Shown here: positions 25,086 to 61,823 of the stretch, piece after piece
Layout of the letters: each line of letters opens with the position of its first letter
How positions within the stretch are numbered: position 1 is the first letter of the stretch
DNA from: a virus
Taxonomy: Duplodnaviria; Heunggongvirae; Uroviricota; Caudoviricetes
Direction: 5' to 3' (one strand)
Length of the DNA: 64,000 nucleotides
Virus record (IMG/VR): IMGVR_UViG_3300032103_000073
Position numbers and translations under genes: made by a program
The notes under the pieces: model-generated
The model's database searches: none
Told to the model about the DNA's origin: nothing
What the model saw: only the letters and a program-made list of their open reading frames with translations

Positions 25086-25532
25086 ATGGAAGAGTGGAAA
25101 ACACTTAAAAGAATTCCGCATTATGAAATTAGCAATACTGGTAAAGTTAGGTCTACGAGATATAATAAAATAAAGATGTTAAAACAGTCGTGTACAGCTG
25201 GCGGGTATCTATTAGTCTGCTTATCAGACGGTAATAAAAAGTACACCAGTTATGTTCATAGATTGGTAGCAGAAGTTTTTTTACCCGAACCTGGTGTTGA
25301 TCAATTAGTAGTTAATCATAAGAATAAAATCAGACACGATAACGATGTAAAAAATTTAGAATGGGCAACAGTTAAGGAAAATATGATGCATGCCTTGGCA
25401 TTCGATTCTCACATTAAATTTCGAGACCTTGCTAATATTTGTTATAAAATGGATCTTGCTCAACTAGACGAAATGATTAGATTTGGTAATACGTTAATAA
25501 CAAATAGCGATAAATACCTTATAAGGAATTAG
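25086..25532 (+). mobile_element. NUMOD4-HNH homing endonuclease
   Basis: EEWK...YEISNTGKVRS (NUMOD4), VHRLVAEVF...VNHKN...N.V.NLEW (HNH_3); TATAAATA at 25050. Confidence 0.85.
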
Positions 25533-25535
25533 ACT

Positions 25536-35843: not shown

Positions 35844-35885
35844 AGGATTTTAACAAGCAGGCGCGCCGAGATGATAAATAACTGC

Positions 35886-36476
35886 ATGAAAGAAAAATAT
35901 GGCCTGACAAAACAATGCAGTTATTGCGGCTCGGCTTTTATTACAAAGCCTAGATTTATAGATTTTTGTTCGCAGAAATGTAAAAATCCTTTAAATAGGG
36001 GAGAGTTTGATCCTTGGAATAAAGGGTTAAAATTGACTGAAGAACAGAAATCTAAACAAAACACTTCTGGCTTGTTAAAAGGACATGGATGGAACAAAGG
36101 TCTTCCAAATGAAAAACAAAGCAAAAAATGGAAAGAAAATAATCCAAATAAAGATGGTAGATTAAATAATTTACGTCCAAAGTCCTATGTAGATGATGAA
36201 TTTACAGCATACAAGAGAGAAGTCCGTAAAGCAACGTATCGTTCTCGCTATCAAATGAAAATAGATGGAGAGATACCGTTAAACACAGGAAAGCGTAAAG
36301 ATCAGTTTCAGCTTGATCATATCGTTCCTTATAAACAGGGTTTTGAGTTAGGAATACCGCCGCATATATTAGGTAGCAAGAGCAATCTAAGGTGGATACT
36401 GGGGGAAGAAAACAGACAAAAATAGGATCGCTTCCAACCAGATGATGTTATTAATAAATTACTAAAGGGAAAATAA
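35886..36476 (+). mobile_element. zinc-finger/NUMOD3/HNH endonuclease with in-frame TAG at 36423-36425
   Basis: C..C...FCSQKC, PWNKG/GWNKG, LDHIVP...SNLR...EENR; frame stays open 16 codons past TAG to a TAA overlapping the iscU ATG. Confidence 0.75.
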
Positions 36477-36878
36477 TGGCTTACAGCGAAAAAGTTATAG
36501 ATCATTATGAGCAACCTCGGAACGTAGGATCTTTTGTCAAGGATGAGCCGCATGTCGGCACCGGCATAGTCGGTGCACCGGCATGCGGCTAGACTAGGCG
36601 ATGTAATGAAGTTGCAAATAAAAGTAAATCCAGAAACAGGCATAATCGAAGATGCACGTTTTAAAACTTACGGCTGCGGCAGTGCTATTGCTAGCTCTAG
36701 CCTAGTTACTGAATTAGTCAAGGGAATGACATTGGATCAAGCAACAAGTATTAAAAATTCTGCCATAGCAGAAGAACTTGCATTACCTCCTGTTAAGATT
36801 CACTGTAGTATTTTAGCAGAAGATGCGATTAAAGCAGCAGTAGAGGATTATAAAAAGAAAAATGATCACTCTAACTGA
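36476..36878 (+). CDS. iscU: Fe-S scaffold IscU interrupted by a 10-nt insert (putative ribosomal bypass)
   Basis: MAYSEKVIDHYEQPRNVGSF...GAPACG (36476-36589) and DVMKLQIKV...KTYGCGSAIAS...PPVKIHCS (36600-36878) join into canonical IscU once 10 nt are removed. Confidence 0.9.
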
Positions 36879-42485: not shown

Positions 42486-42920
42486 ATGAAAAGGTTCTAC
42501 GCGGCATACGGCATGAATACTAACATGGGAGAAATGGCATACCGTTGCCCGGGTGCAGTTTGCATTGGCGCTGGAAGCATTGCCGACTATAAGCTGACAT
42601 TTAGAACACATGCTGACATTGAAGCTTGTGAGGGCAGTGAAATCAAATGCGTTGTTTGGCAAATTACACCTGAATGCGAATGTAATTTAGACATGCTGGA
42701 AGGTTATCCGTTTTATTACATTAAGAAGGAGTTCGTTGTAAAACTTGACAACATGTATAAAAACATGACGCATCTATCGGCAATGGCCTACCAAATGACT
42801 AATCAAACTGGAAATGAGTTCCCGGGAGACTGGTATGTGGATTGTCTTTTAGAAGGCTATGCAGAACATGGGGTTGATGTTGATCAAATTTATCAAGCAC
42901 TGGAGGAATGTAGTGTCTGA
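42486..42920 (+). CDS. gamma-glutamylcyclotransferase-family protein
   Basis: YAAYGMN.N...M..RCP.A...LD.LEGYP..Y. Confidence 0.8.
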   Translation: MKRFYAAYGMNTNMGEMAYRCPGAVCIGAGSIADYKLTFRTHADIEACEGSEIKCVVWQITPECECNLDMLEGYPFYYIKKEFVVKLDNMYKNMTHLSAMAYQMTNQTGNEFPGDWYVDCLLEGYAEHGVDVDQIYQALEECSV

Positions 42921-43218: not shown

Positions 43219-44041
43219 ATATTGGAGCTGCACTAAATTTGCAGACTGGCTACGTGGAACTAGCAAGCCTAAAATGGGCACAGGCGAGCAATGGGATGAT
43301 TGGCATAGCCTAGCTAGTTCTACTCACAAAATTCGCTATTGGCTAGCAGAAGAAGCACTTGATGCAGTACAAAACTTTATCTGGTGGCCTGTAGATAAAA
43401 TCTATAGCGCCAAGTACTATATCAACAATCGCTGGGTCACTAGCACTCATGCGCTGACTGCAAGCCCTTGTGATATTCGTCCTGGCACTTGGTGTGATGT
43501 AGGTTATCGTTTCCTGCCTTGTTTGTTTAATGAGCTACAAAACTACGTTGAACAAGAACTTGCATGGTGGCACATCGCTTGGGATGACGCTGCAAAGAAA
43601 AAGTACAAAGCACCGTTTTGGGCTCGCGGTTGGTTCCGCTGGCGCACATGGCGTTGTCCCGAAGCGGGTATCGCTAACCTCGAATGGCAACAGAGTTTAA
43701 CAAACAGTTATCTCAACGAAGATCACGCGGACTATAATAAGCCAAGTCCTCAAGCCAAAGACGCCGCAGAAATTCTTGCCCTTTACAAATGGTGGACAGA
43801 AGTTTATCGCAACCGTCCTGATCCTCATGAAGCTAGTGGCTGGAGCGCCTACTGCGACGAAAAGCGCAATCTAAATCCCGGCTCCGTGAGCTTGTTTAAC
43901 AGCAAGAACGAAACAAAAGAAATGAAAAAGCGCGGTATTAAAGCACTTGACCTTTCTCGTAAGATTGAGCAAGGCTATGAGCGAGAAGATGAAAAGATGA
44001 TGATCCGTTTGATCAAAATTCGACATAAGTTGTGGACATGA
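43202..44041 (+). CDS. Trp-rich hypothetical protein
   Basis: 279-aa ORF. Confidence 0.65.
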   Translation: MAQRSKYWSCTKFADWLRGTSKPKMGTGEQWDDWHSLASSTHKIRYWLAEEALDAVQNFIWWPVDKIYSAKYYINNRWVTSTHALTASPCDIRPGTWCDVGYRFLPCLFNELQNYVEQELAWWHIAWDDAAKKKYKAPFWARGWFRWRTWRCPEAGIANLEWQQSLTNSYLNEDHADYNKPSPQAKDAAEILALYKWWTEVYRNRPDPHEASGWSAYCDEKRNLNPGSVSLFNSKNETKEMKKRGIKALDLSRKIEQGYEREDEKMMIRLIKIRHKLWT

Positions 44042-44463
44042 TTGAAAATCGCCGGGCACATTACGACTACGAAATACTCGAAACCTACGAGAGCGGGCTC
44101 GTGCTAGAATCTTGGGAAGTTAAAGCCATCGCAGCCAAGACTTGCAACATTGCTGGCTCGCACTGTAAGGTTATGAACGGAGCAATCTACTTGATCGGTG
44201 CCAGCATTGGATCAAGTGACAATGAACAACAGCGTAGCCGCAAACTGCTATTGCACAGTAGAGAAATCAGCCGTTTGATTGGCCAAACACAAGAAAAAGG
44301 CTTGACACTTGTGCCTTTGCGAGTATATAATAAGAATGGAAAGTTTAAGTTAGCTATGGGTCTTGCCAAGGGTAAGAAAGAGTTTGACAAGCGCGAGACT
44401 GAAAAGAAACGCACTATTGAAAACGAAACTCGTCGTATTGTAAAGAGCCAAAAGTTAGCATAA
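44038..44463 (+). CDS. smpB: SsrA-binding protein SmpB
   Basis: NRRAHYDY...YESGLVL..WEVK, RSRKLLLH, GLTLVP, GLAKGKK.FDKRE; adjacent to tmRNA. Confidence 0.92.
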   Translation: MIENRRAHYDYEILETYESGLVLESWEVKAIAAKTCNIAGSHCKVMNGAIYLIGASIGSSDNEQQRSRKLLLHSREISRLIGQTQEKGLTLVPLRVYNKNGKFKLAMGLAKGKKEFDKRETEKKRTIENETRRIVKSQKLA

Positions 44464-44475
44464 ATAGTTTTAACA

Positions 44476-44765
44476 GCGTAAAGTGAAATAAAGAACGTGG
44501 TTCAAGAAAGGGGTTCAAATCCCCTGTCCTCCACCAAAAGCATTATCACAATTAAGGGTTGGTTGCCAGATATAGACCAGATAATGCTTTTGATGGGGGA
44601 CCTCCGGAATCGATTGGGCCGTAAGTAAGTATTTTATCGCTCGGGAATGTAGAACTCGTTAGGATTGGGGTAACCCGGTCGAAGAAGCAAAACAAAGTAA
44701 ACGCAAACTCTGACGTATACGAATTGGCAGCGTAAGCTGACTTGGGTAACTATACCTCGAAACAG
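44476..44765 (+). ncRNA. ssrA: circularly permuted (two-piece) tmRNA
   Basis: T-arm AGGGG-TTCAAAT-CCCCT and GTCCTCC-A-CCA (44509-44536) lie upstream of the 5' strand GGGGGAC (44595) with G3.U70; tag ORF ANSDVYELAA* at 44703-44735. Outer ends approximate. Confidence 0.9.
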
Positions 44766-44773
44766 AAAATAGC

Positions 44774-44800
44774 AATAGGACCTTCGGGTCCTATTTTCTT
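44774..44800. terminator. intrinsic terminator after tmRNA
   Basis: AATAGGACC-TTCG-GGTCCTATT plus T-tract. Confidence 0.8.
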
Positions 44801-46091
44801 ATACAATTTCCTGCCAGCCTAACTGTGCCATAACATCAGCGTTATTAGCAGTTGATGTAAGAGCAAGAGTGATTATATCACTCACACCGGCAACACTGCG
44901 ACCTAATTGACACTGGAAAGCATCTGCACTTAACATTGCAACTTCTCTACTGCTAGTATAACCGCTTTGCAACTCAACACCTCCGGTTATAGCAGTTGCA
45001 CCTGTATCATATTTGACTGTTCCTGTTGTGCTAGTACCGGACCAAGTTGCTCCTGTTAAGCTAGGATTTAACAATAAGACCCAACGATAGTAATTGACAC
45101 TTGGGCTTAAAATATCAACTTGTCTTGGTAAAACAATACTGTCTAGTCTATTAGAATCTAATTTTATACTGACCATTGGGTAATAAGTACCGGCAGTTAC
45201 TAATCTCTTTTGATTGATTCCAGTTCCGGCACTTTCGGTACAGCTAAATCCCTCGTAGCCGCCTTCGCTAATAACACTGCTACAAATCTGTTTGATACTA
45301 ACACTAGCGCCTGTGCTGATTAATTCGTACCTAATAGGTAGTCTAGCAGTAGTCATATAAACACTGTCTATTAAATTGGCATGATTAAAAATGTGTGCAA
45401 TATAATAGTTACCATTTATAACAAACCCGGTTCTAACACTGCCGACACCTAGCCACTCGATATCAACAAACATAATCTGTGCTTTAGTAGTGTCTAGTGT
45501 TATACCACTTGGTCCTGTTCCATCTAATCTATCTACATTCCATTGTGATTGATCGACAGCAGTATCAACGACTGACCCGGTTATATAACTTCGCTTGCAC
45601 ATGCGTAACTGACCATTTGACTTTTCTAAATAAATCCCATTTTGTGCGCTAAAATAACCTGCACGTTGAGTAACTCCGGCAGTGCCAGCAGACATAACAA
45701 AAGTATTAAACACTAACAAACTCTTGCCGGGTTGATAGGCAAATACTCTTTTAGATTCGGCTACGACACTGCCTTCACCTGAGCAACTTAATCTTACGCT
45801 ACTTTCGTTTGGCAAATAAGTAGCGGCGCCTGCGCCGCTAGCACCATAGCTGAATTTGTCATTTAGGCGATATCTGTTCTGACTGTCGAAAATAGTGTAA
45901 GGGCTGCTGACACGTAGTCTTCCGAACGCATCAGTTGCGGCATTTACGTTGCCGCCACCACCTACACTAGGGTTACCTCCTGTGCTAAACCTAGCAGCGA
46001 CCCTAATCTCAGGCTGGGACTGCGGGTTATACTGCATTGTTTGGTGCAAGTTAAATAATTTTGGGTCGTCGGGGTGTTGATAGTTAGACAT
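44799..46091 (-). CDS. Gly/Ser/Thr-rich beta-sandwich (probable virion) protein
   Basis: ATG at 46091 with SD AAGGA; beta-rich composition. Confidence 0.6.
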   Translation of the reverse strand: MSNYQHPDDPKLFNLHQTMQYNPQSQPEIRVAARFSTGGNPSVGGGGNVNAATDAFGRLRVSSPYTIFDSQNRYRLNDKFSYGASGAGAATYLPNESSVRLSCSGEGSVVAESKRVFAYQPGKSLLVFNTFVMSAGTAGVTQRAGYFSAQNGIYLEKSNGQLRMCKRSYITGSVVDTAVDQSQWNVDRLDGTGPSGITLDTTKAQIMFVDIEWLGVGSVRTGFVINGNYYIAHIFNHANLIDSVYMTTARLPIRYELISTGASVSIKQICSSVISEGGYEGFSCTESAGTGINQKRLVTAGTYYPMVSIKLDSNRLDSIVLPRQVDILSPSVNYYRWVLLLNPSLTGATWSGTSTTGTVKYDTGATAITGGVELQSGYTSSREVAMLSADAFQCQLGRSVAGVSDIITLALTSTANNADVMAQLGWQEIV

Positions 46092-46142
46092 AATAGTATC
46101 CTTTTTAGTATTTACCAAAATTTTGGCAAACTAAATAACACT

Positions 46143-46826
46143 ATGAAACCAGATGTATATATTTGTGGCTGTAGCTTTTCTTCTGGATTTTACCGAAAAG
46201 AAAGCAATCCGTTTGTTGCCGGTCAATTCATCCCTTATCCTGAAATATTTTGCAGTATAAAAGAATTGACATTTGTTAATTTGTCATTTCCTGGTGCATC
46301 TAACTATGCTATAACTAAACAGGTTGAATTTGCTATAACACAAAAACCAAAGTTAATCATAGTCAATCTTACAACCTCAGGACGATTAGATTGGACTCAT
46401 TCAAACAAACGATTAGCAGCAGCACCTACGTTGAGGGATATTACATATAATCAATCATCAGATCATCCGTTACTTAATGCAAGCAACACTATATTATCTA
46501 TGCCTATTGCAACCATGATAAATGAAGATAATGTAGACAGTATAGTTGCAGAATATATTGCAGAATATATAGATATTCGATTATTATCGGACAAAGATCG
46601 CTTATTAATTTTAGGTATGTTTTCGTTATTAGACGGCTCTACTATACCTTATTTAGCAGTGAATTTTTCAAAAAAACTTGGAAAAAAAATTAGACCGGAA
46701 GTCTATGATGTCTCACTTCTTTCTCTGATTAACAATTATCCTATACCAACGGATGATTGTCATTTTAATCAACTTGGACATCAATACATTGCACAACTGC
46801 TTGTTGCTAATTATGTTGGAGATTAA
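46143..46826 (+). CDS. SGNH/GDSL-like hydrolase
   Basis: ICGCSFS block I, NLSFPGASN, D.CHFN..GH. Confidence 0.6.
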   Translation: MKPDVYICGCSFSSGFYRKESNPFVAGQFIPYPEIFCSIKELTFVNLSFPGASNYAITKQVEFAITQKPKLIIVNLTTSGRLDWTHSNKRLAAAPTLRDITYNQSSDHPLLNASNTILSMPIATMINEDNVDSIVAEYIAEYIDIRLLSDKDRLLILGMFSLLDGSTIPYLAVNFSKKLGKKIRPEVYDVSLLSLINNYPIPTDDCHFNQLGHQYIAQLLVANYVGD

Positions 46827-46921
46827 AATATATTTGGCAAACTAGCCCATTGACTATTGTGTAAGTTTATATGTATAATGGTGCTAGGGCGAAAGTCCTA
46901 TTTTAAAAAGGAAATTGAAAT

Positions 46922-47374
46922 ATGAAAAAAATTGCATTAGCATCCGTTATCGCACTAGCAGCGGCCGCAGTCGGAGCAGCAGAAGTTGGCGTTACAACAA
47001 CTCGTGATTACAGCGGAGCAGAAAATCGCAATGGCGCAGGCATCACGCTAGGCCAAAGTGTCGGCCAATTTGGCGTCACTGCAGGCTTTGAACGAGCAAC
47101 AGCAGGTTCTAACGATCAAGATCGTTATAGTCTAGTAGCAGGTAAAGATGTTGCTCGTTTTGGTCAAGTAACTATTACACCTAAAGTAGGTGTTGCTTAT
47201 TTGAATAACCAAACATCTGCTGATGGTTATGCTATGACAGTCGGTCTAGGCGCAACTATGCCGGTTACTAAGCAGGTTAGCTTGGGCGTTGATTTTGCTC
47301 GTCAATACGGTCAAGACCGCGTTGCTCAATTTGACGGCAATCGTGTTTCAGTTGGCTTGAAATACAAGTTCTAA
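46922..47374 (+). CDS. small outer-membrane beta-barrel protein
   Basis: Signal peptide, amphipathic strands, terminal VGLKYKF. Confidence 0.8.
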   Translation: MKKIALASVIALAAAAVGAAEVGVTTTRDYSGAENRNGAGITLGQSVGQFGVTAGFERATAGSNDQDRYSLVAGKDVARFGQVTITPKVGVAYLNNQTSADGYAMTVGLGATMPVTKQVSLGVDFARQYGQDRVAQFDGNRVSVGLKYKF

Positions 47375-47392
47375 TTAATCTAGGGCTATGAT

Positions 47393-47417
47393 AAAAGGCT
47401 GCTTGTGCAGCCTTTTT
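47393..47417 (+). terminator. intrinsic terminator
   Basis: AAAAGGCTGC-TTGT-GCAGCCTTTT. Confidence 0.75.
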
Positions 47418-47440
47418 CCTTATCAGGTTTGCCAAAAGAC

Positions 47441-47469
47441 TTGATTTTAATAATAGTCTATTGTAAAAT
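47441..47469 (+). promoter_or_regulatory. sigma70-like promoter for the tRNA/ompA unit
   Basis: TTGATT-17 nt-TAAAAT, 9 nt before the tRNA. Confidence 0.6.
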
Positions 47470-47478
47470 ACACGTATA

Positions 47479-47555
47479 GCGCTAGTAGCCCGTAAGGTAA
47501 GGGCAGCTGATTCTAAACCAGAGTGTAGCAGGTTCGATTCCTGTCTAGCGCACCA
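47479..47555 (+). tRNA. tRNA with CUA anticodon (putative amber suppressor)
   Basis: GCGCTAG/CTAGCGC acceptor, GCCC/GGGC D-stem, loop TT-CTA-AA, GCAGG-TTCGATT-CCTGT T-arm, A73, encoded CCA; anticodon stem only 3 of 5 Watson-Crick pairs. Confidence 0.8.
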
Positions 47556-47572
47556 AACATAGAGATATAAAA

Positions 47573-48184
47573 ATGAAAAAATTACTGTTAACTGCAACTC
47601 TGTTTGCTTCTGTTGCAAACGCACAAACAAATGACAACTGGATGGCATCTGGTCAGCCCGTTCGCAATAGCACAGGTCTGTGTTGGCGTGACGCCAACTG
47701 GACTCCGGCAACTGCACACCTTGATTGTGATGGCGCGCTAAAACAAGTTGCCCAAGCACCTGCACAAAAAGTTGATATCACCAGGCCCTCTGCAACTATT
47801 GCAGCTCGTGCTCCTATCAAGCCCGACGCAGTTAAAACTAGCTATGCCGCAGATGCATTGTTTGACTTTGATAAGTCTGTTTTGAAACCTCTTGGTAAGG
47901 CGACACTAGACGGTCTAGTCGAGCGCATCAATGGTATTTCACTCGAAGTAGTGATTGTAGTTGGTCATACTGACAGCGTTGGAACTGACGCATACAATCA
48001 GAAACTTGGTCAGCGCAGAGCAGACGCAGTTAAGGCTTACCTTGTGAGCAAAGGCATTGACTCTAAAAGAGTATACACAGAGAGTCGAGGCGAAAAGCAA
48101 CCGGTTGCAGACAATAAGACTAGCAAAGGCCGTGAGCGTAATCGCCGTGTTGAAATCGAAGTAGTTGGAACAGTAAAGCAATAA
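47573..48184 (+). CDS. ompA: OmpA-family protein
   Basis: Signal peptide, CWRDANWTPAT, ALFDFDKS.L, VGHTDS.G...YNQKLGQRRA.AV, RNRRVEI. Confidence 0.92.
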   Translation: MKKLLLTATLFASVANAQTNDNWMASGQPVRNSTGLCWRDANWTPATAHLDCDGALKQVAQAPAQKVDITRPSATIAARAPIKPDAVKTSYAADALFDFDKSVLKPLGKATLDGLVERINGISLEVVIVVGHTDSVGTDAYNQKLGQRRADAVKAYLVSKGIDSKRVYTESRGEKQPVADNKTSKGRERNRRVEIEVVGTVKQ

Positions 48185-48210
48185 TCATGCAAAACATTAG
48201 GAGAAACGTA

Positions 48211-48570
48211 ATGCGTAGTGTAAAGATTGACAAGAAGAAGTTATTGGGTATTGTTCGCGAGAATAAGGAAAAGCACATTAAGGACTTTAATGAAAGCGTT
48301 GAGGATTTTAAGGCCCTTGCAGTTAAGATTACAACTGCAAACCTTGAACTAGCTAACTCTGCTGACTTAGCTAAAATTTCTCGTATTAGATCAATTCCTC
48401 AGGCTCCTACTAGCCATGAAAAGGAATACGAACGTGCCATTCGTATGCTCGAGCTAAGTGTTGAAAAAGAAATCGAAGTTGAAGAAGATATCTTTAATCA
48501 ACTAGTGCTAGATGAGTGGGCATGGAAGAACCAGTTTATCGCCAGCGCAAGTTTGTATAAAACAATGTAA
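48211..48570 (+). CDS. hypothetical protein
   Basis: ATG at 48211 with SD AGGAG. Confidence 0.65.
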   Translation: MRSVKIDKKKLLGIVRENKEKHIKDFNESVEDFKALAVKITTANLELANSADLAKISRIRSIPQAPTSHEKEYERAIRMLELSVEKEIEVEEDIFNQLVLDEWAWKNQFIASASLYKTM

Positions 48571-48579
48571 GGATACAAT

Positions 48580-49026
48580 ATGTCTATAACAATTAAAAAC
48601 TTAGAAGCGGCATTGGCGGGTGAAAGCCAAGCACATATCAAATATCGTTATTTTGCTAAGATTGCTCGTGAAGAAGGTTTCGAGGAAGTTGCAAAACACT
48701 TTGAACACACCGCAGACCAAGAGTTACTTCATGCCTGGGGTCACCTTGAACTATTGATCGGCAAGCCCTCTACTAAAGAGTGTCTTGAACGAGCCATCGA
48801 AGGCGAAACATACGAATTTACCGTTATGTATCCAGGTATGGTTGCAGGCGCACAGCAGGAAGGCCATATAGCAGAGCAAGAATTTATCGAGCAAATAGAC
48901 GAATCAAAAGAACATGCTGAACAGTTTAAGGCAGTTCTTGCCAAGGCAGAAAAGCGTTTTGCAGCGTTAGCAAAAGTTGAAAAACGACATGCTGAAGCAT
49001 ATAAACAAGTTATGGAGAATATGTAA
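48580..49026 (+). CDS. rbr: rubrerythrin
   Basis: AALAGESQA...Y..FA..A.EEG, QELLHA, EGETYE..MY, ESKEHA, EKRHA. Confidence 0.9.
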   Translation: MSITIKNLEAALAGESQAHIKYRYFAKIAREEGFEEVAKHFEHTADQELLHAWGHLELLIGKPSTKECLERAIEGETYEFTVMYPGMVAGAQQEGHIAEQEFIEQIDESKEHAEQFKAVLAKAEKRFAALAKVEKRHAEAYKQVMENM

Positions 49027-49154
49027 TGGAATACGTTTGCGTAGTATGTGGTCATGTCCACGATGAAGAACTTGAAGGTAAATGGGATGAGCTTCCTGAT
49101 GATTTTCTTTGCCCTGAATGTGGCGTTGGCAAAGAAGATTACGAAGCTATCTAA
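49026..49154 (+). CDS. rub: rubredoxin (42 aa)
   Basis: YVCVVCGHVHDE...WDELPDDFLCPECGVGKEDY; below the ORF-track cutoff. Confidence 0.9.
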   Translation: MEYVCVVCGHVHDEELEGKWDELPDDFLCPECGVGKEDYEAI

Positions 49155-49158
49155 AGAG

Positions 49159-49338
49159 CAGCGGTTTCTTTTCTAAGTTGAATCCAGTATGAGTTGCACG
49201 GTAAGCTAGATAAATCCGTGGGCAGGCAAGAGTATCAAAATGTAACTTAGATGACAGCTGGGAACAGACTGGCACTATTAAATAGTATTGTAACACCAGT
49301 TACAACCAACAGACTTTAAGAATTATGCGTTTAGTCTG
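49159..49338 (+). ncRNA. candidate structured leader RNA
   Basis: TCTAAGTT/AACTTAGA, CACGG/CCGTG, TTGTAAC/GTTACAA, CAGACT/AGTCTG pairings in a 205-nt non-coding gap. Confidence 0.4.
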
Positions 49339-49359
49339 TACGCAGTAAAAGGAAGAAAA

Positions 49360-50301
49360 ATGATGTTTCAATCAAAACTCGTTGCGAGTCTAAAAGCTAA
49401 CGGCAAGATCCTCCGTGAATTCAAGGACACAGTCTATATTCCATTTGGCAGCGAATATAGCTTTCTAATCAAGAACCTCAACACCACACGAGCACTGGTC
49501 AATATCTTTATTGATGGGAAAAATGTCATTGAAGGCGGCTTGGTTCTCAATGCAGGCCAAGAAGTTGACTTGGAGCGTTATGTAAAGAACGGCAACCTAA
49601 ACGAAGGCAACCGCTTCAAATTCATTGAGCGCACAAGTGCAATTGAAAACGGTCCGCGTGGTGCAAAATTGGAGGACGGACTTGTCCGTATCGAATTTCA
49701 ATTTGAAAAACCACCTGTGCGTGTTGCAGACTTACCTGAATGGCAACGTCGATCTATCTTTGGTCCCATGTACGGCAACCACGGTGGTATCGTTGGAAGT
49801 AGTAATACGAGTGAGTACCCTGGTGCCGTTGACAAGTACAGCAAGAGTACCACCGCCGGTTGGGTTGCTACTAACGGTGTAACATTCAGCCAAGTAAATG
49901 TAGGCGGAGTATTGCGTGGTGTTGACTACAGCAGGAACGGCAAAGTAACAGCACAGGCAGCAAGTGCCGCAGTAGACAAGTATTGTGCCGACAACGGTAT
50001 TATCAACCAAGTTGAACTGCACGATGGTATGTCTACAATGGACTGGATGGCGAACGATGTTGGTATCACAGTCCCTGGCAGTAAGAGCGAACAAAAGTTC
50101 CAAACCACCTACATGGGTGCAATGGAAGCTGAAAAGCATACCATTGTTCTAAAACTGTTAGGAGAAACCGCCGATAACAAACCTGTAGTAAAACCTGTTA
50201 CAGTTAAGGCCAAGCAGAAATGCGATACCTGCGGACACACAAACAAAGCCACTGCCAAATTCTGTACAGAGTGCGGTACGAGTTTAGTAATCTACGCATA
50301 A
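49360..50301 (+). CDS. hypothetical protein with C-terminal zinc ribbon
   Basis: KCDTCG..N...AKFCTECG. Confidence 0.65.
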   Translation: MMFQSKLVASLKANGKILREFKDTVYIPFGSEYSFLIKNLNTTRALVNIFIDGKNVIEGGLVLNAGQEVDLERYVKNGNLNEGNRFKFIERTSAIENGPRGAKLEDGLVRIEFQFEKPPVRVADLPEWQRRSIFGPMYGNHGGIVGSSNTSEYPGAVDKYSKSTTAGWVATNGVTFSQVNVGGVLRGVDYSRNGKVTAQAASAAVDKYCADNGIINQVELHDGMSTMDWMANDVGITVPGSKSEQKFQTTYMGAMEAEKHTIVLKLLGETADNKPVVKPVTVKAKQKCDTCGHTNKATAKFCTECGTSLVIYA

Positions 50302-50419: not shown

Positions 50420-50782
50420 ATGTCAAAAGCAACTACATTCACCGTCGACAAGTTCTATATCTTGTCAGCAATCAACAAAACAGGCGAGCGTGTCTATTAC
50501 GACACTGACGCACACTCTGGTGGCTACCCGTACTGGAGCACTTTTTCGTCTATGGCTTGCAACAAGAAGTTCGCCAAACTGGACGACATTCCTACATTTT
50601 CTAGCACAGATTACATGCGCCGTGATGTGACAAGCATCGAGGTGCTGGAAGTCACTACTCGGGCTAAAGTAGTAGAAACTACTGAAATCGTTAGTGAAGC
50701 CCGCGCAAAGGCTATGGCAGAAATCGCCAAAATCGAAAAAGAACTGGCACAAAAAATTGCAAGACTGGAAGGTGTAAAATGA
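50420..50782 (+). CDS. hypothetical protein
   Basis: SD AAGGA; first gene of the NMNAT unit. Confidence 0.65.
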   Translation: MSKATTFTVDKFYILSAINKTGERVYYDTDAHSGGYPYWSTFSSMACNKKFAKLDDIPTFSSTDYMRRDVTSIEVLEVTTRAKVVETTEIVSEARAKAMAEIAKIEKELAQKIARLEGVK

Positions 50783-51798
50783 CTAAGCCATATGGAACTA
50801 TTATGCTGATCGGGCGTTTCCAACCCCTGCACTCGGCACACCTCGAAATTATCAAGCGTTGCACTGCACTTACCGACCAGCTGGTTGTAGTGGCAGGCAG
50901 TGCTAATCAACCCCGTACTTACAAGAACCCGTTTACTTTCGAGGAACGGGCAAAGATGATCCGTGCCGCAACAGCCGGACTAAGTATGCGTGTTTATGTT
51001 GAGCCTAACATTGACACAATCTACAATGACCAAGCCTGGGCAGTTCGTGTTCAAGGTATTCACAGCAAGTATCGCATCCTTGGTACTAAAGATGCTATCA
51101 TTGGTCACAAGAAAGACGACAGCTCGTTCTACCTTGATATGTTCCCACAGTGGGAGTACATCAATGTGGAAGAAATCGAACCCTTGAGCGCAGTTAACAT
51201 TCGCGACCTGTACTTCAAGAGCGATTGCAATATGCGTTTCATTAAAGGCGTTGTTCCTGAAACTACTTTTGATTTTCTTGAACAGTTCAAGACTACAGCT
51301 GACTACGAGCAAATCATTCGTGAGCGTGAGTTCGTAGCTAACTACAAAAAGCAATACGCAAGTCTCCCTTACCCTCCAATCTTCAGCACTGCTGATGCTG
51401 TGGTAATCCAAAGTGGCCACGTGCTGATGATTAAACGCAGAGCCGAGCCCGGAAAAAATCTAATGGCCCTGCCAGGTGGGTATGTAAATGCTCAAACGGA
51501 TAAAAGTGTAGAAGATGCCGCAATCCGCGAACTTCGTGAAGAAACTATGATTAAAGTGCCCGAGCCGGTGCTTAGGGGTTCAATTGTTCGCAGTAAAGTA
51601 TATGATGCTATTGATCGCAGTCCGCGGGGCAGAATTATAACTCACGCATTCTTAATCCAATTGCCTGATGGGGAGTTGCCAAAAGTAAAAGGATCTGACG
51701 ATGCCCTTAAAGCAAAATGGATTCCGATTGCCGAAATTAAGAGTGAGGAGACCTTCGAAGATCATTATGAGATCATACAAGACCTAGTTGGGTTTTAA
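50779..51798 (+). CDS. nadM: bifunctional NMN adenylyltransferase / ADP-ribose Nudix hydrolase (NadM-Nudix, NatV-like)
   Basis: IGRFQPLHSAH, GSAN...KNPFT..ER, Nudix box PGG...AAIRELREET, GSDDA. Confidence 0.92.
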   Translation: MTKPYGTIMLIGRFQPLHSAHLEIIKRCTALTDQLVVVAGSANQPRTYKNPFTFEERAKMIRAATAGLSMRVYVEPNIDTIYNDQAWAVRVQGIHSKYRILGTKDAIIGHKKDDSSFYLDMFPQWEYINVEEIEPLSAVNIRDLYFKSDCNMRFIKGVVPETTFDFLEQFKTTADYEQIIREREFVANYKKQYASLPYPPIFSTADAVVIQSGHVLMIKRRAEPGKNLMALPGGYVNAQTDKSVEDAAIRELREETMIKVPEPVLRGSIVRSKVYDAIDRSPRGRIITHAFLIQLPDGELPKVKGSDDALKAKWIPIAEIKSEETFEDHYEIIQDLVGF

Positions 51799-52720
51799 TT
51801 ATTGTTTCGATATCGTTGAATTTATGATAAGGGATTCTTAACAATAGTATATTGTTATCTTCACAGAACTTGTTCTTGATGTTATCATTAGCAAGTCCAG
51901 TTAAGAATCCTGCTTCATTCTTTTGTTGATCTGAGTGACGAGGAACAATCTTAAAATGTTGAACTCCGTCATATTCTATACACAAGTTATGGGATGGGAT
52001 GTAAAAGTCAAATTCAAGTGGAGCCTTGTTTCTACATTCATCAAACTTATGTTGTTCAATAAATTCAACGTCAAGGCTTTTAAGGACTGTTGCAACTCTA
52101 TCTTCGCCCTTGGATCTATTACATTTGGAACATCCGTGACCGCTGAGATGATAACCAGCAACTTGATTAAACTCGCCGTGAGTTTTACATATAATGGTTA
52201 ATTTCTTGTTATCACCTAAGTATTGAGTTTTGGAATAGTCATAGTTATCACTGTGCTTATGTTTTGCTTTTTCTATAAACATTTCGGTGGTATGGAGTTT
52301 TCTAATACGAGTCGCGTGAGCTGCACATTTGGGACAACCGTTCCCGCTTCTGTGGCTATGAGGAGTTTGTAGGAAGTCGCCGTGTTCTGGACAAGTGATA
52401 ATAATCTTAGTTGCCCAGTTTATGTAGTCAACTTTGGAATAGTCGTATTTGTTGTTATGAATAGAATTAATCTCGGCGATAAAGATTGCCGAATCTTTTC
52501 TAAAACGGAGAGAATTATTTTGTTTGCCACATTCAGCACAGCCATTTCCGTTTAAGTGGTATTCGGGCTTTTGTTGAAATTCGCCGTGGATTGGGCAGGT
52601 AATTTGTATTTTGGTTTGAAAGTTTTTGTATACTACATTAGTATACCTGTATTTGGAGTTGTGAATTATGTTCGCTCTTGCTATAAATTCGTCAGTTGTT
52701 AATCGTTTACCGGTTGCCAT
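51773..52720 (-). mobile_element. DUF723-repeat homing endonuclease with Vsr/PD-(D/E)xK-like C-terminal domain
   Basis: Three H..KY.YS...Y......I.I.C..HG.F.Q....H..G.GC..C repeats; FDFYIP..NLCIEYDG.QH; GATAAATA on minus strand at 52740-52747. Confidence 0.8.
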
Positions 52721-52782
52721 TGTATTTGTCCCTTCAGTTTATTTATCATTTTATGCTAAGAACTGTGGGCTTTACAAGGTGC

Positions 52783-52811
52783 TTGACAGAATGGTCGAAC
52801 GGTGCTATAAT
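52783..52811 (+). promoter_or_regulatory. sigma70-like promoter
   Basis: TTGACA-17 nt-TATAAT. Confidence 0.85.
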
Positions 52812-52837
52812 ATACACATCAACAAAGAAAGTATTGT

Positions 52838-53077
52838 ATGAACGAACGAATTAAAGACCTTTGGCAACAAGCCGCATGTTTTGTCAATCCATTGAAAGAA
52901 GGTGGTGAGTGGCAAGCAGAGTTTGTTGAAAAATTCACTGAATTGGTAGTGAAGGAATGTGCTATGTGTATCACTACACCAAACATTCAAGCACTACCAC
53001 CAAATGATGTTATAATGAAAACGGTTCTAGATGTGTTAGTAAGTGACATGAACGAACATTTCGGAGTCGAAGAATGA
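52838..53077 (+). CDS. small hypothetical protein (paralog A)
   Basis: MNERIK.L...F.ELVVKEC...EHFGVEE. Confidence 0.65.
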   Translation: MNERIKDLWQQAACFVNPLKEGGEWQAEFVEKFTELVVKECAMCITTPNIQALPPNDVIMKTVLDVLVSDMNEHFGVEE

Positions 53078-53313
53078 ACGAACGAATTAAAGAACTCAGA
53101 GCAAAATCTATGGTTCCTGTCCAAAAAGACGGATACACCTCTTGGGTATTTGACGAAGAACAGTTCGCCGAGTTGATTGTTCGGGAATGTCTAGAGATTG
53201 TTGAAGATGGTGTATTGAACAGCGATGGTGAAGGTGTTTGGTTTGAAGGCTATCAGCGAGGTGCTAACGAGTGCCATCGTAAGATTAAACAACATTTCGG
53301 AGTTGAAAAATGA
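53074..53313 (+). CDS. small hypothetical protein (paralog B)
   Basis: MNERIK.L...FAELIVREC...QHFGVEK. Confidence 0.65.
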   Translation: MNERIKELRAKSMVPVQKDGYTSWVFDEEQFAELIVRECLEIVEDGVLNSDGEGVWFEGYQRGANECHRKIKQHFGVEK

Positions 53314-53504
53314 CTACCAAAGAATATGACCGTTTGAATGAAGGTGCAATCGACGAAGTTGATGCAGCCGTTTGGGGCGGCGATATGTTTATCAATCGAG
53401 AAAACATTGCCGACTTTCGTAGCATGCTCAAGCGTTGGGAACAAGGCCTAAAAGAAGCAGAAGCTATTCTTGATGAAATGGAAACAATTTATGATAGTCC
53501 CTGA
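53310..53504 (+). CDS. hypothetical protein
   Basis: ATGA-coupled ORF. Confidence 0.55.
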   Translation: MTTKEYDRLNEGAIDEVDAAVWGGDMFINRENIADFRSMLKRWEQGLKEAEAILDEMETIYDSP

Positions 53505-53748
53505 TTTAGTCAATGCAGTCGAAAAAGGACGACAACATATGAACGGATATAATTTTAATTTTGCAGTAAGTGCTACTATTAGCGAACGGGTAGTTAAAGA
53601 AATGATTACCCGAGTGGTTGAGGAGCAAACTGGCAAGAAAGTCTCTAAGGTAGAGATGAATATGAAAACTGTAAGTAAAGGCTCATATCGGGGCGAATAC
53701 ACCGAAACAGTTTTCGAAGGCGTAACTGTATATTTTGAAGGAGCATAA
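53491..53748 (+). CDS. hypothetical protein
   Basis: ORF overlapping neighbours. Confidence 0.5.
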   Translation: MIVPDLVNAVEKGRQHMNGYNFNFAVSATISERVVKEMITRVVEEQTGKKVSKVEMNMKTVSKGSYRGEYTETVFEGVTVYFEGA

Positions 53749-53948
53749 TGGCCGATCCATTAGACGAAGCAGCTGAAGTAACCGAAATGTTGCTACAGCG
53801 AGCACTGAATACCAAGGCCGCAGTACCGGAAAAAACCGGATTCTGTTTGACCTGTGAAGAACCAACTCCCGGGGCATTTTGCTCTACAGAGTGCAGAGAA
53901 ATCTATGAGCAAGAGCAAAAGCTACGAGCTATTAGAGGAAAAAGTTGA
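53748..53948 (+). CDS. TraR/DksA-like zinc-finger protein
   Basis: MADPLDEA.E...GFCLTCEE...FCSTECR..YE. Confidence 0.7.
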   Translation: MADPLDEAAEVTEMLLQRALNTKAAVPEKTGFCLTCEEPTPGAFCSTECREIYEQEQKLRAIRGKS

Positions 53949-53973
53949 CACAAAAATAGGTTTGTGTTATACT
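53945..53973 (+). promoter_or_regulatory. sigma70-like promoter
   Basis: TTGACA-17 nt-TATACT. Confidence 0.8.
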
Positions 53974-54026
53974 GTAAGCAAGTCCTAAGGAAAGACCTAA
54001 GGCAATTTTAGTAAAGGAACTTTATT

Positions 54027-55427: not shown

Positions 55428-55505
55428 ATTGGTAAACAAGAGAGTAGGCAGAAATGCCTACTCCTGCTATAATAAACAAATCAACAATACATTAAGGCAA
55501 ACAAA

Positions 55506-56621: not shown

Positions 56622-56629
56622 TAAATAAA

Positions 56630-56668
56630 TTAGAATATTACACGGATAGATTCCGTGTAATATTCTAA
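56630..56668. repeat. perfect 17-bp inverted repeat
   Basis: TTAGAATATTACACGGA-TAGAT-TCCGTGTAATATTCTAA. Confidence 0.9.
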
Positions 56669-56678
56669 GATTATAGTA

Positions 56679-58037: not shown

Positions 58038-58062
58038 AAAAAGCCCCTTAAAGGGGCTTTTT
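58036..58062. terminator. bidirectional terminator between convergent radical SAM genes
   Basis: AAAAAAAGCCCCT-TAA-AGGGGCTTTTT. Confidence 0.8.
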
Positions 58063-59416: not shown

Positions 59417-59487
59417 ATGGATATTTATATCCTTGACATCAATTTTAGATTTGCTATAATAAATATTCTTAATAAAGGAAATCAAAA

Positions 59488-60051
59488 ATGACAAAACAAT
59501 AGATCGAAATCGCTTGCAAGGATGTGGTGTTCCATTTTAACAAAAAACATCTCGAAGACCAAACTATTCCCATGTGGGTCTTAAAAGCACATGGCGACAC
59601 TTACTACGTAAATCACGTAGATTGCACACTTCCATGGAGCACTAAAGAAACTAGTGATAATCCGCATACTAAAGGAAGTATCAAGGTAAAAGATTGTTTG
59701 CTAACAATTGATTCTGATAACCGTGCAACTTTATCCAAACTTACCTTAATAGACCGAGTCCGATTGAGAAATCAACGCTTGGGCATTACTCGCGTCATCT
59801 TTAGAGACAACGACTTTGAGAAAGTTCTTAAAGAAGAAGGTATCAAGTTTAGTCCATTTAAGCGAGTAACAGGCGCTTGTTATACAACGTATACAGTTTG
59901 CGATATACTAGACCGACATGATGCTATGATTTTAAGTTTAAAGTATCCGGGTAGATTTAGAGTGTTGCAGCCAAACGAAACTTATTATCAAGCCTATGAT
60001 GATAAGAAACTGTGGGATAAATTACAAAGAGAAAGCTACGAATATGATTGA
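59488..60051 (+). CDS. hypothetical protein with in-frame TAG at codon 5
   Basis: SD AAAGGA, then ATG ACA AAA CAA TAG ATC GAA ... in frame with the 59524 ORF. Confidence 0.6.
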
Positions 60052-60463: not shown

Positions 60464-60545
60464 TTCTCTAGGTTCTAGACTTGTTGTGCTATATAATAGT
60501 GTAAGAACACAAGTTCTTGCATAACACACAGAAAGAGAGATTACT

Positions 60546-61149: not shown

Positions 61150-61196
61150 TTAGGTTTCGCTTTGTAAATAAAAGGACACGTATGTGTCCTTTTTTC

Positions 61197-61823
61197 ATGA
61201 GCACTATGGACTTAAAACAAATCATAACAACTAACAATGATATACGCCATTTAGTTAACATTGTCGACGATCCGTCCGGCAGCGGCAATGCATCGATAGA
61301 TTTTACAAGTTTATATGCTGATCCTTGTGCAATTGAAATGATTTCAGATTGGTTTGATTTATTAGTCAGCAAACATAATATTTCGTGTATTGTTGCAATA
61401 GAAACTCGAGGTTTAATTTGGGGCTCGATTGTTGCATCTAGGAATAAGTTGCCACTGCTATTGTCAAGGAAAGTAATAAATATACCTGGAGATAATGTCT
61501 CAACTCGATTTATCTCCAGGTCTAGGCTGCATATTGCTACCATTGCAAAAAATTTCAAACCAACCGGAAATGTTATGCTAGTCGATGATACGATTGTTTC
61601 AGGAGCTACTCTTGAAGGGACATCATCTTTAATATCAACCCATTGGAAAATTCCGCCGTCTAATCAAGTGTTAGCATCAGTTTTGTATTGTGATAATTTA
61701 TCAGGAGTAGACCGTTTGTCGGCTCTAGGCTATAAAGTTGAATATATGAATCGGATTACAGCACCCGGATACGTGTTCGATCGGATTCGTGAGAACATTG
61801 GAACATTGAGCAAGGAAAGCTAG
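61197..61823 (+). CDS. type I phosphoribosyltransferase (APRT-like)
   Basis: IVAIETRG..WG, VMLVDDTIVSGATL PRPP loop. Confidence 0.75.
   Translation: MSTMDLKQIITTNNDIRHLVNIVDDPSGSGNASIDFTSLYADPCAIEMISDWFDLLVSKHNISCIVAIETRGLIWGSIVASRNKLPLLLSRKVINIPGDNVSTRFISRSRLHIATIAKNFKPTGNVMLVDDTIVSGATLEGTSSLISTHWKIPPSNQVLASVLYCDNLSGVDRLSALGYKVEYMNRITAPGYVFDRIRENIGTLSKES

What the first reader, a model, noticed from the sequence alone, without database searches (positions are those of the whole stretch)
47441..47555. Amber-anticodon (CUA) tRNA with its own promoter
Seen: a complete 77-nt cloverleaf with encoded CCA. The only register giving U33 and a standard 5-nt variable loop puts CTA at 34-36. The anticodon stem has terminal G.A and A.C mismatches and the D-loop starts with atypical G14/U15. 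By manual reading, only 2 of about 97 called CDS end in TAG (25530, 61821), while TAG appears inside coding frames at 36423, 36590 and 59500. Inference: partial or conditional amber suppression rather than full recoding. The amino acid is unknown (A73, G1-C72). TAG is generally the rarest stop, so its scarcity alone is weak evidence.
Basis: partly seen in the sequence, partly recalled or inferred. Interest (0 to 1): 0.75.

Follow-up and report, generated by a model that had tools for sequence, protein, structure and literature searches.

The report
Phage amber-suppressor tRNA gating one gene
A giant freshwater phage that otherwise uses the normal genetic code carries a real tRNA that reads the stop codon UAG. 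Its conserved target is a single UAG at codon 5 of one phage gene 12 kb away, so that protein can probably be made only while the phage's own tRNA overrides the stop.

Summary
The tRNA is real: 47479-47555 (+), anticodon CUA, encoded CCA, called by ARAGORN and by Rfam (50.9 bits). I collected 90 distinct relatives.

The window is not recoded. TAG still ends genes, and a complete 364-kb relative shows no excess of in-frame TAG.

The likely target is gene 59488-60051. It has a perfect sigma-70 promoter, a ribosome-binding site, then ATG-ACA-AAA-CAA-TAG and 182 conserved codons. Of 167 related phage loci (109 distinct), 160 keep ATG, 1-5 (rarely more) codons, then TAG, never TAA or TGA. A CUA tRNA lies on the same strand in 105 of the 109.

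A second in-frame TAG (36423) sits at a conserved Trp codon of a homing-endonuclease gene.

The inserted amino acid is unknown. Lysine is my inference from A73, G1-C72, U35 and the loose 31-39 pair. The function of the gated protein is also unknown.

This scan has already noted the same tRNA-gene pairing in other genomes. I found no description of it in the papers I searched. Nothing here is experimental.

The parts
47397..47417 (+). Terminator-like hairpin (GGCTGC-TTGT-GCAGCC followed by a T run) that closes the upstream outer-membrane beta-barrel gene. It isolates the tRNA from upstream transcription.
   Evidence: Read directly from the sequence. The consensus scan did not list it.
47441..47469 (+). 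Sigma-70-like promoter TTGATT-17-TAAAAT, ending 9 nt before the tRNA 5' end.
   Evidence: 9 of 12 matches. In relatives, a promoter of at least 9/12 lies 3-14 nt upstream of the CUA tRNA in 44 of 85 distinct cases, against 2.9% at random positions.
47479..47555 (+). tRNA with anticodon CUA (loop UUCUAAA), G1-C72, A73 and encoded CCA. The anticodon-stem core is 3 base pairs, flanked by G27.A43 and A31.C39.
   Evidence: ARAGORN. Rfam 50.9 bits. Family model R1 70.5 bits. Covariation across 90 distinct relatives.
59433..59460 (+). Perfect sigma-70 promoter TTGACA-16-TATAAT with TG before the -10 hexamer, driving the gated gene.
   Evidence: 12 of 12 matches.
59475..59502 (+). Gate: Shine-Dalgarno AAGGA, then ATG (59488) ACA AAA CAA TAG (59500-59502).
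   Evidence: The same layout occurs in 160 of 167 related loci, and the stop is always TAG. Pattern counts are TAG 173, TAA 9, TGA 9.
59488..60051 (+). Amber-gated gene. 182 conserved codons follow the TAG (IEIACKDVVFHFNKK...). The protein has no Pfam family. The predicted fold is an N-terminal beta domain plus an ACT/RRM-like domain.
   Evidence: (pLDDT 91.2). Codons just after the TAG vary synonymously.
35871..36476 (+). HNH homing-endonuclease gene with an in-frame TAG at 36423-36425. The L161 homologue has TGG (Trp) there. The 16-codon tail after the TAG is conserved, and its TAA overlaps the iscU ATG.
25530..25532 (+). TAG used as a true stop of a NUMOD4/HNH_3 endonuclease gene. The next conserved gene starts at GTG 25536 in the same frame.
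61821..61823 (+). TAG used as the stop of a phosphoribosyltransferase-like gene (61182-61823). Read-through would add 29 residues (30 codons including the TAG). No match to that tail was found in the related loci.

Best explanation
The tRNA is a functional, phage-encoded amber suppressor that serves one dedicated codon rather than a recoded genome. It is transcribed from its own early-type promoter and most likely charged by a host synthetase. My inference for the amino acid is lysine. It reads the UAG at codon 5 of gene 59488-60051. Without the tRNA, ribosomes that start at the strong SD-ATG make only a four-residue peptide. With it, they continue into the 182 conserved codons. The gene's output therefore depends on the level and charging of the phage tRNA relative to host RF1, which makes it a one-codon translational gate or delay. 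What is shown: the tRNA's structure and its conservation; the invariance of the TAG; the protein-level constraint on the codons right after it; the tRNA-gene linkage. What is inferred: that this tRNA decodes this codon; which amino acid is inserted; what the gate is for. A side effect is that sporadic TAG mutations, such as the Trp-to-TAG change in the HNH gene at 36423, can be tolerated.
For: (1) The tRNA is real and under selection. ARAGORN and Rfam agree. In 90 distinct relatives, acceptor-stem positions pair in 88-90 of 90 and T-stem positions in 89-90 of 90, with several compensatory pair types. UCUAA is invariant, and CCA is encoded in all. (2) The target: in 160 of 167 related loci the conserved ORF is preceded by SD-ATG, 1-5 (rarely more) codons, then TAG, and never by TAA or TGA. 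Across the same DNA the pattern 'SD-ATG, up to 5 further codons, stop, ORF of at least 80 codons' occurs 173 times with TAG, 9 with TAA and 9 with TGA. (3) The codons right after the TAG are translated. Ala, Cys, Lys, Asp and Tyr codons vary at third positions while the residues stay the same. They form the first beta-strand of a confident model. The nearest possible internal start is usually not a start codon: codon 8 is ATG in 4 and GTG in 13 of 92. (4) Linkage: a CUA tRNA is found in the fetched locus for 105 of 109 distinct genes, always on the gene's strand, at a median distance of 312 nt. In most loci it is the only tRNA. (5) There is no conserved RNA structure around the TAG that could drive read-through in cis. 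The base after the TAG is always a purine: A in 85 and G in 7 of 92. (6) There is no genome-wide recoding. (7) In L126 the family gene lacks the TAG, but the adjacent PTH2-like gene has TAG at codon 3. (8) Lysine inference: A73 in 82 of 90, G1-C72 in 90 of 90, U35, and a 31-39 pair that is unpaired or weak in 89 of 90. E. coli LysRS uses U35 and A73 and prefers a flexible 31-39 pair. GlnRS wants U1-A72, G2-C71, G73 and prefers C31-G39 (PMC1483225). No Glu/Gln-type or Lys/Asp/Asn-type synthetase domain was found in five large relatives.
Against: Nothing is experimental. In this window the tRNA lies 11.9 kb from the gate, the largest separation seen, so here the link rests on comparison with relatives. 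Three lineages keep the tRNA although the family gene has lost its TAG: L109/L112, L127/L130 and L126. Only in L126 did I find another gated gene. The tRNA may therefore have other targets or another role. Both the tRNA and the gated gene carry early-type promoters, so a simple early-to-late switch is not evident. The weak anticodon stem could mean low decoding efficiency. The lysine assignment borrows E. coli rules for an unknown, probably betaproteobacterial, host. The only in-frame TAG with a sense-codon homologue aligns to Trp, not Lys. The gated protein's function is unknown, so no rationale for gating can be checked.
Confidence: 0.7

Rival explanations
1. The tRNA is a general nonsense buffer or has another primary role, for example reading through host or phage UAG stops to make extended proteins. 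On this view the conserved TAG in the family gene is a hostage that keeps the tRNA linked, and it has no regulatory meaning.
For: The tRNA persists in lineages whose family gene has lost the TAG. The window holds a sporadic TAG at a conserved Trp codon of an HNH gene whose tail is still conserved. Read-through of the HNH stop at 25530 would fuse it to the next gene, which is in the same frame.
Against: The gate TAG is fixed in 160 of 167 loci, at one position, with an in-frame SD-ATG. No comparable excess of other in-frame TAGs was seen. TAG stops are not avoided more than in ordinary genomes: 7.3% in relatives.
Confidence: 0.12
2. The ATG-x-TAG unit is a mini-ORF leader. Ribosomes terminate at UAG and re-initiate at the adjacent AUU/AUC/AUA, or at a downstream GUG or AUG. 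The tRNA is then not needed for the protein.
For: The codon after the TAG is ATT, ATC or ATA in 82 of 92 distinct genes. In the window an AAGGA lies just before GTG 59524/59527. The SD-ATG-few codons-stop layout resembles lambda bar minigenes (my own knowledge).
Against: This does not explain why the stop is always TAG, or why a CUA tRNA is always linked on the same strand. In 10 of 92 genes the next codon is GTA, GTT or ACT, which are not start codons. Codon 8 is rarely ATG or GTG. Residues 1-8 belong to the first beta-strand of the model.
Confidence: 0.06
3. The phage uses TAG as a sense codon in a block of genes outside the 64-kb window (partial code 15). The gate is only one instance of this.
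For: Only 64 kb of a much larger genome could be read. Block-wise recoding with phage suppressor tRNAs is known from gut phages (bioRxiv 10.1101/2021.08.26.457843).
Against: The window includes the terminase, a structural protein and replication genes, all with no in-frame TAG. The complete 364-kb relative G003 has one CUA tRNA, 16 TAG stops out of 327, and fewer TAG-split ORFs (15) than TAA-split (54) or TGA-split (30).
Confidence: 0.05
4. The tRNA-shaped RNA does not decode. It could be a processing or stability signal for the downstream mRNA, an integration site, or a decaying gene.
For: In most relatives it sits 22-400 nt upstream of the gated gene on one transcript. The anticodon stem is weak and the window copy has G14.
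Against: UCUAA is invariant in 90 of 90 while the rest of the molecule varies. A36-A37-A38, U33 and the encoded CCA are conserved. In this window the tRNA is 12 kb from the gene and has its own promoter.
Confidence: 0.05

Closest known systems
Phage-encoded Sup-CUA tRNAs of TAG-recoded ('code 15') phages: crAss-like, Lak, Agate and others (bioRxiv 10.1101/2021.08.26.457843; PMC9523058)
   Same: A phage-borne tRNA with anticodon CUA acts in a standard-code host. In-frame TAGs make expression of certain genes depend on the phage's own translation component. The authors also propose regulation of gene timing.
   Different: In those phages, tens to hundreds of TAGs are spread through late and lysis genes, TAG is largely abandoned as a stop, and the inferred residue is Gln. 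Here there is one conserved TAG at codons 3-5 (rarely later) of one gene, TAG still ends genes, the acceptor-end features (G1-C72, C2-G71, A73) do not fit GlnRS, and the habitat is freshwater jumbo phages.
Amber-gated gene plus CUA tRNA pairs noted earlier by this scan in other jumbo-phage genomes (e1-5370680, e1-5370690, e1-5364437; PTH2-like variant e1-1681951, e1-1835197)
   Same: The gated protein family is the same (M-x-TAG-IE[YFIL]ACKD...), and the tRNA lies on the same strand. I re-derived this independently on 167 loci.
   Different: In this window the two parts are 11.9 kb apart, each with its own promoter. Those notes are unpublished AI notes and not independent evidence.
prfB (RF2) autoregulation through an in-frame UGA
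   Same: A single early in-frame stop codon makes a gene's output depend on competition between termination and an alternative decoding event.
   Different: prfB uses a +1 frameshift sensed by RF2 itself, with no dedicated tRNA. No feedback loop is evident here.
Pyrrolysine and selenocysteine decoding
   Same: A dedicated tRNA reads a stop codon at specific sites in an otherwise standard code.
   Different: The tRNA here has an ordinary cloverleaf (G18G19, T-loop GTTCGAUUC, 5-nt variable loop). It has no tRNAPyl or tRNASec features. I found no conserved cis element.
Lambda bar minigenes (recalled from my own knowledge)
   Same: A strong SD, ATG, one to a few codons, then a stop.
   Different: bar minigenes act by peptidyl-tRNA drop-off and are not followed in frame by a conserved ORF or paired with a suppressor tRNA.

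Membership tests
tRNA (Rfam RF00005), elongator type | Cloverleaf scoring above the curated threshold, with U33, G18G19, a T-loop and a 7-bp acceptor stem | tested here: met
   50.9 bits against a gathering score of 29, full model. ARAGORN agrees. The stems covary in 90 relatives.
Amber suppressor tRNA | Anticodon CUA in a 7-nt loop with U33 and A37 | tested here: met
   The loop is UUCUAAA in the window and YUCUAA(A/C) in 90 of 90 relatives.
Amber suppressor tRNA | Is aminoacylated and inserts an amino acid at UAG in vivo | not testable with these tools
   No expression or charging data.
tRNA-Pyl (ARAGORN's label) | The tRNAPyl architecture (recalled from my own knowledge): 3-nt variable loop, short D-loop without G18G19, no T-psi-C motif, 6-bp anticodon stem | tested here: not met
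   The variable loop is 5 nt, G18G19 and GTTCGATTC are present, and the anticodon stem has 5 positions of which 3 pair. ARAGORN's label follows from the anticodon alone.
Initiator tRNA | A 1-72 mismatch and three consecutive G-C pairs at the base of the anticodon stem | tested here: not met
   G1-C72 in 90 of 90. The anticodon stem is weak, with 31-39 mostly unpaired.
Code-15 (TAG to sense) recoded phage | Many in-frame TAGs at sense positions of conserved genes, and TAG abandoned as a stop | tested here: not met
   The window has one conserved and one sporadic in-frame TAG, and TAG ends at least two genes. In the complete relative G003, TAG makes 16 of 327 stops and there is no excess of TAG-split ORFs.
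Amber-gated gene / CUA-tRNA module of jumbo phages (the scan's own provisional class) | SD-ATG, 1-5 codons, TAG, then a conserved ORF in frame | tested here: met
   Window 59475-60051. 160 of 167 loci.
Amber-gated gene / CUA-tRNA module of jumbo phages (the scan's own provisional class) | A CUA tRNA on the same strand in the same genome | tested here: met
   In the window it lies 11,945 nt upstream. It was found for 105 of 109 distinct genes.
PTH2 peptidyl-tRNA hydrolase (as the gated protein) | Sequence or fold match to PF01981 | tested here: inconclusive
   The window protein has no Pfam hit and no PTH2 among the listed fold matches. A separate PTH2-like gene is the gated one in L126 (19.6 bits, below the cut-off of 23).

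The most novel reading that the evidence does not exclude
A private suppressor tRNA and a single early UAG form a portable one-codon translational gate. It makes one conserved phage protein depend on the phage tRNA's abundance and charging relative to host RF1. The gate can move between genes: it sits on a PTH2-like gene in L126, and a homing-endonuclease ORF is fused behind the gated leader in L093 and L156. This would be a natural counterpart of the amber-codon switches built in synthetic biology, present in well over a hundred standard-code jumbo phages.
Probability: 0.45. Interest if true: 0.8.

Novelty: new variant of a known kind. Interest (0 to 1): 0.7.

Why it matters
Phage suppressor tRNAs are currently read as markers of genome-wide stop-codon recoding, or are left unexplained. 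Here the tRNA has one identifiable, deeply conserved target codon in a standard-code genome. That turns an annotation oddity into a testable regulatory device. It explains why such 'orphan' suppressor tRNAs exist in large environmental phages. It also warns annotators. Standard gene callers truncate the gated gene. Callers set to code 15 print a spurious Gln, as in database proteins P0043 and P0035. The tRNA family may also be of practical interest as a set of natural amber suppressors with an unusual, conserved weak anticodon stem.

Tried and rejected
- No whole genome is held for this window, so the rest of this phage, including its tRNA array and RF1-like gene, could not be read.
- megablast of 44000-50000 against GenBank phages found nothing.
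- Foldseek against PDB and AFDB clusters, VIA-align wide and the ESM Atlas gave no informative match for the gated protein. The only signal was a generic ACT/RRM-like C-terminal domain at Z of 6 or less.
- Database homologues that show Gln at the TAG position (P0043, P0035) were called with TAG=Q, so they say nothing about the inserted residue. For P0001 and P0003 no DNA was available.
- Relatives with a sense codon near the gate are uninformative. L169 has AAT there. L088 and others start directly at ATG-ATC-GAA.
- Nearest-neighbour comparison of the CUA tRNAs with 406 other phage tRNAs gave no clear parent: Thr 18, Lys 15, Val 14, Arg 10.
- A bulk test for sense residues aligned to in-frame TAGs was too noisy, because non-coding frames of conserved DNA also align. 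The rates were similar for all three stops: TAG 32%, TAA 25%, TGA 35%.
- An RF-1 domain gene was present in only 1 of 5 large relatives, so it is not an obligate partner. No Glu/Gln-type or Lys/Asp/Asn-type synthetase domains were found.
- The gate-like patterns at 36552-36567 and 42835-42850 were rejected. The first lies in the HNH frame across the iscU start. The second lies inside a GGACT-family gene in another frame.
- RNAalifold found no conserved structure around the TAG.

Full report
**The observation**

ARAGORN finds exactly one tRNA in the 64-kb window, at 47479-47555 on the + strand, with anticodon CTA. Rfam's tRNA model matches the same place at 50.9 bits against a gathering score of 29, E 5.6e-08, over the full model. 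Its alignment marks 27-43 (G.A) and 31-39 (A.C) as non-standard pairs. CCA is encoded and the D-loop starts G14-U15. A sigma-70-like site, TTGATT-17-TAAAAT (47441-47469), ends 9 nt before the tRNA. A hairpin followed by a T run (47397-47417) closes the upstream gene.

**Genomic context**

The window is part of a large phage genome. It encodes a large terminase, a virion protein, a gp32-like SSB, helicases, ribonucleotide reductase and a nicotinamide phosphoribosyltransferase. It also encodes SmpB next to a permuted tmRNA. No whole genome is held for it and it has no near match among GenBank phages. Earlier notes of this scan call it a giant freshwater phage with a tRNA array of about 35 genes and an RF1-like gene outside my window. 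I could not read those parts.

**Is the code changed?**

No. Among 94 greedy ORFs the stops are TAA 51, TGA 40 and TAG 3. Reading TAG as sense lengthens hardly any plausible gene. A complete 364-kb relative (G003) has one CUA tRNA, set apart from its main tRNA array. TAG ends 16 of 327 ORFs there, and TAG-split ORFs (15) are fewer than TAA-split (54) or TGA-split (30). TAG makes up 7.3% of stops in relatives.

**The target**

At 59433-59460 lies a perfect promoter, TTGACA-16-TATAAT with an upstream TG. It is followed by AAGGA, then ATG ACA AAA CAA TAG, and then an open frame of 182 codons ending at 60051.

I fetched relatives of this protein from IMG/VR in three scans. Anchoring on the conserved F-x-F-N-K motif, 160 of 167 loci have a TAG 9-12 codons upstream of it (one more, L003, at 14), and never TAA or TGA. 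In the first 88 loci listed every one had an in-frame ATG one to a few codons upstream, and the 16 bases before it hold an SD-like motif in nearly all.

Across all this DNA, on both strands, the pattern 'SD-ATG, up to five further codons, stop, ORF of at least 80 codons' occurs 173 times with TAG, 9 with TAA and 9 with TGA. Of the 173 TAG cases, 160 are this family.

The codons right after the TAG are translated:
- Ile-Glu-(Tyr/Phe/Leu/Ile)-Ala-Cys-Lys-Asp is kept while third positions vary (GCT/GCA/GCG, TGT/TGC, AAA/AAG, GAT/GAC).
- In an AlphaFold model with mean pLDDT 91.2 these residues are the first beta-strand.
- Internal initiation cannot be the general route. Codon 8 is ATG in 4 and GTG in 13 of 92 distinct genes, and codon 9 is GTG in 49 of 92.
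- No conserved RNA structure surrounds the TAG.
- The base after the TAG is always a purine, A in 85 of 92. From memory, this context favours suppression in E. coli.

**Linkage**

ARAGORN finds a CUA tRNA in 76 of the first 88 loci, always on the gene's strand and usually as the only tRNA present. Rfam and inspection recover further copies that ARAGORN misses. Counting distinct gene sequences, 105 of 109 have a CUA tRNA in the fetched stretch. The four without one are two short contigs of about 11 kb (L016, L025), the 944-nt contig L088, and L098. The median distance is 312 nt. The window's 11,945 nt is the largest.

A promoter scoring at least 9/12, placed 3-14 nt upstream of the tRNA, occurs in 44 of 85 distinct cases against 2.9% at random positions. 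This supports the 'own promoter' part of the finding.

**The tRNA family**

In 90 distinct sequences:
- Acceptor-stem positions pair in 88-90 of 90 and T-stem positions in 89-90 of 90, with several compensatory pair types.
- Pairs 28-42, 29-41 and 30-40 hold in 90 of 90.
- Pair 27-43 holds in only 57, and pair 31-39 in only 24 (C.A 43, A.C 14, C.C 7).
- G1-C72 is invariant, C2-G71 occurs in 86, A73 in 82, and the loop is YUCUAA(A/C) in all.

The window's 'defects' are therefore conserved traits of a functional family. The window's D-arm variant recurs in L069, L017 and L058.

**Which amino acid?**

There is no direct evidence. Database proteins that show Gln at the site were called with TAG=Q. 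Relatives without the TAG either start at that position or carry an uninformative codon. No parent isoacceptor stands out. Five large relatives encode no Glu/Gln-type or Lys/Asp/Asn-type synthetase domain, so a host enzyme must charge the tRNA.

By E. coli rules quoted in PMC1483225, LysRS uses U35 and A73 and prefers a flexible 31-39 pair. GlnRS uses U1-A72, G2-C71 and G73 and is favoured by C31-G39. The family's features fit Lys better than Gln. This is an inference carried over to an unknown host. The host is probably betaproteobacterial, to judge from beta-type permuted tmRNAs in relatives.

**Other TAGs in the window**

- TAG 36423 lies in an HNH endonuclease gene. The 66%-identical L161 homologue has TGG (Trp) there, and the next 16 codons are conserved up to a TAA that overlaps the iscU start. 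This is either a tolerated truncation or a suppressed nonsense codon.
- TAG 36590 is in the iscU frame but opens a 10-nt insert, so suppression cannot restore the frame. Another report of this scan deals with it.
- TAG 25530 is a true stop of a second HNH gene. The next gene, which has homologues in relatives, starts at GTG 25536 in the same frame.
- TAG 61821 ends a phosphoribosyltransferase-like gene.

**Exceptions**

L088, L109/L112, L127/L130 and L126 lack the TAG in the family gene. Except for L088, which is only 944 nt, all keep a CUA tRNA upstream. In L126 the adjacent PTH2-like gene begins ATG AAA TAG. In L095, L111 and L121 that PTH2-like gene has no TAG while the family gene does. 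L109 and L127 keep an ATG-TTG-TAG-ATT remnant, now separated from a new SD-ATG by a hairpin-containing insert. The gate can thus be lost or sit on another gene, and the tRNA may have further targets.

**The gated protein**

It has no Pfam family. There are 164 representatives at E of 0.001 or better in 1.84 billion proteins. Its N-terminal domain of about 78 residues also occurs at the C-terminus of unrelated phage proteins of about 180 residues. Fold searches give only a generic ACT/RRM-like match for residues 84-175. The ESM Atlas gives nothing. Function is unknown.

**Mechanism and comparison with what is known**

The best-supported reading is a dedicated suppressor tRNA that licenses translation of one gene through one early UAG. 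Placing the stop at codons 3-5 limits the cost of failure to a short peptide. This last point is inference.

The nearest known system is stop-codon recoding with phage Sup-CUA tRNAs in gut phages. That involves many TAGs and, where assigned, Gln. Recent jumbo-phage surveys likewise discuss suppressor tRNAs only in connection with alternative codes. I found no paper describing a single conserved gated gene.

This scan has already noted the same pairing in other genomes. Those notes gave me the lead, and I tested it independently here. Later checks of similar notes put the bold 'switch' reading at about 20%. I therefore keep two claims apart. That the tRNA decodes this TAG I put at about 0.7. 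That it serves as a regulatory switch I put at about 0.45.

Noticed in passing
window 44032-44826: A phage-encoded SmpB gene (Pfam 150 bits) lies directly upstream of a permuted tmRNA (Rfam RF04321, 74.6 bits; tag ANSDVYELAA). In relatives, a tmRNA lies within about 15 kb of the gated gene, on the same strand, in 24 of 109 distinct loci, often 0.5-1.5 kb away.
   Followed up: partly
window 35871-36476: The HNH endonuclease gene carries TAG (36423) where the L161 homologue has TGG (Trp). The 16-codon tail is conserved and its TAA overlaps the iscU ATG.
   Followed up: yes
window 36476-36878: iscU is interrupted after ...Ala-Cys-Gly by a 10-nt insert that starts with TAG (36590) and contains a second TAG. 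Amber suppression here would continue in the wrong frame and would compete with any bypass. This is the subject of another report.
   Followed up: partly
window 25086-25796: A NUMOD4/HNH_3 endonuclease gene ends in TAG one codon before the GTG start of the next conserved gene, which is in the same frame. Read-through would fuse the two proteins.
   Followed up: partly
L093:4470-5135, L156:9311-9994, L140:5417: An ORF of 219-225 residues with a NUMOD3 motif (homing-endonuclease type) is fused in frame behind an 'ATG-x-TAG-IEY...' leader, just upstream of the intact gated gene. The endonuclease seems to have inserted into the gene's 5' end and duplicated the gated start.
   Followed up: partly
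L126:9631-10005: A PTH2-like gene (Pfam PF01981, 19.6 bits, below cut-off) begins ATG AAA TAG, while the adjacent family gene has no TAG. In L095, L111 and L121 the arrangement is the reverse.
   Followed up: partly
L109:9870-10000 and L127:2400-2530: A remnant ATG-TTG-TAG-ATT is separated from a new SD-ATG start of the family gene by an insert with a terminator-like hairpin. This is a lineage that has lost the gate but kept the tRNA.
   Followed up: no
L069:9894-9970: This CUA tRNA differs from the window's at only 3 positions, although the gated proteins are only about 62% identical. There it sits 28 nt upstream of the gate, beside 23 other tRNAs. The tRNA may have been exchanged between phages.
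   Followed up: no
window 46922-48184: The tRNA is flanked by an outer-membrane beta-barrel-like gene (weak Pfam hit) and an OmpA-family gene with a signal-peptide-like start. A rubrerythrin gene follows at 48580-49026. These are envelope and oxidative-stress genes in a phage.
   Followed up: no
window 50779-62757: An NAD salvage set (NMNAT-NUDIX fusion 50779-51798, NAMPT 54027-55427, PRTase-like 61182-61823) and two radical-SAM genes on the minus strand (58061-59494 with a SPASM domain; 61756-62757) flank the gated gene.
   Followed up: no
L085:2714-2794 (-): A freshwater-2 RNA motif (RF02980, 78 bits) lies 64 nt from a CUA tRNA (2858-2927), on the opposite strand.
   Followed up: no
proteins P0043 (L167) and P0035 (L168): Public protein predictions for this family were made with TAG=Q, so they show a Gln at the gate that rests on the caller's assumed code alone.
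   Followed up: yes
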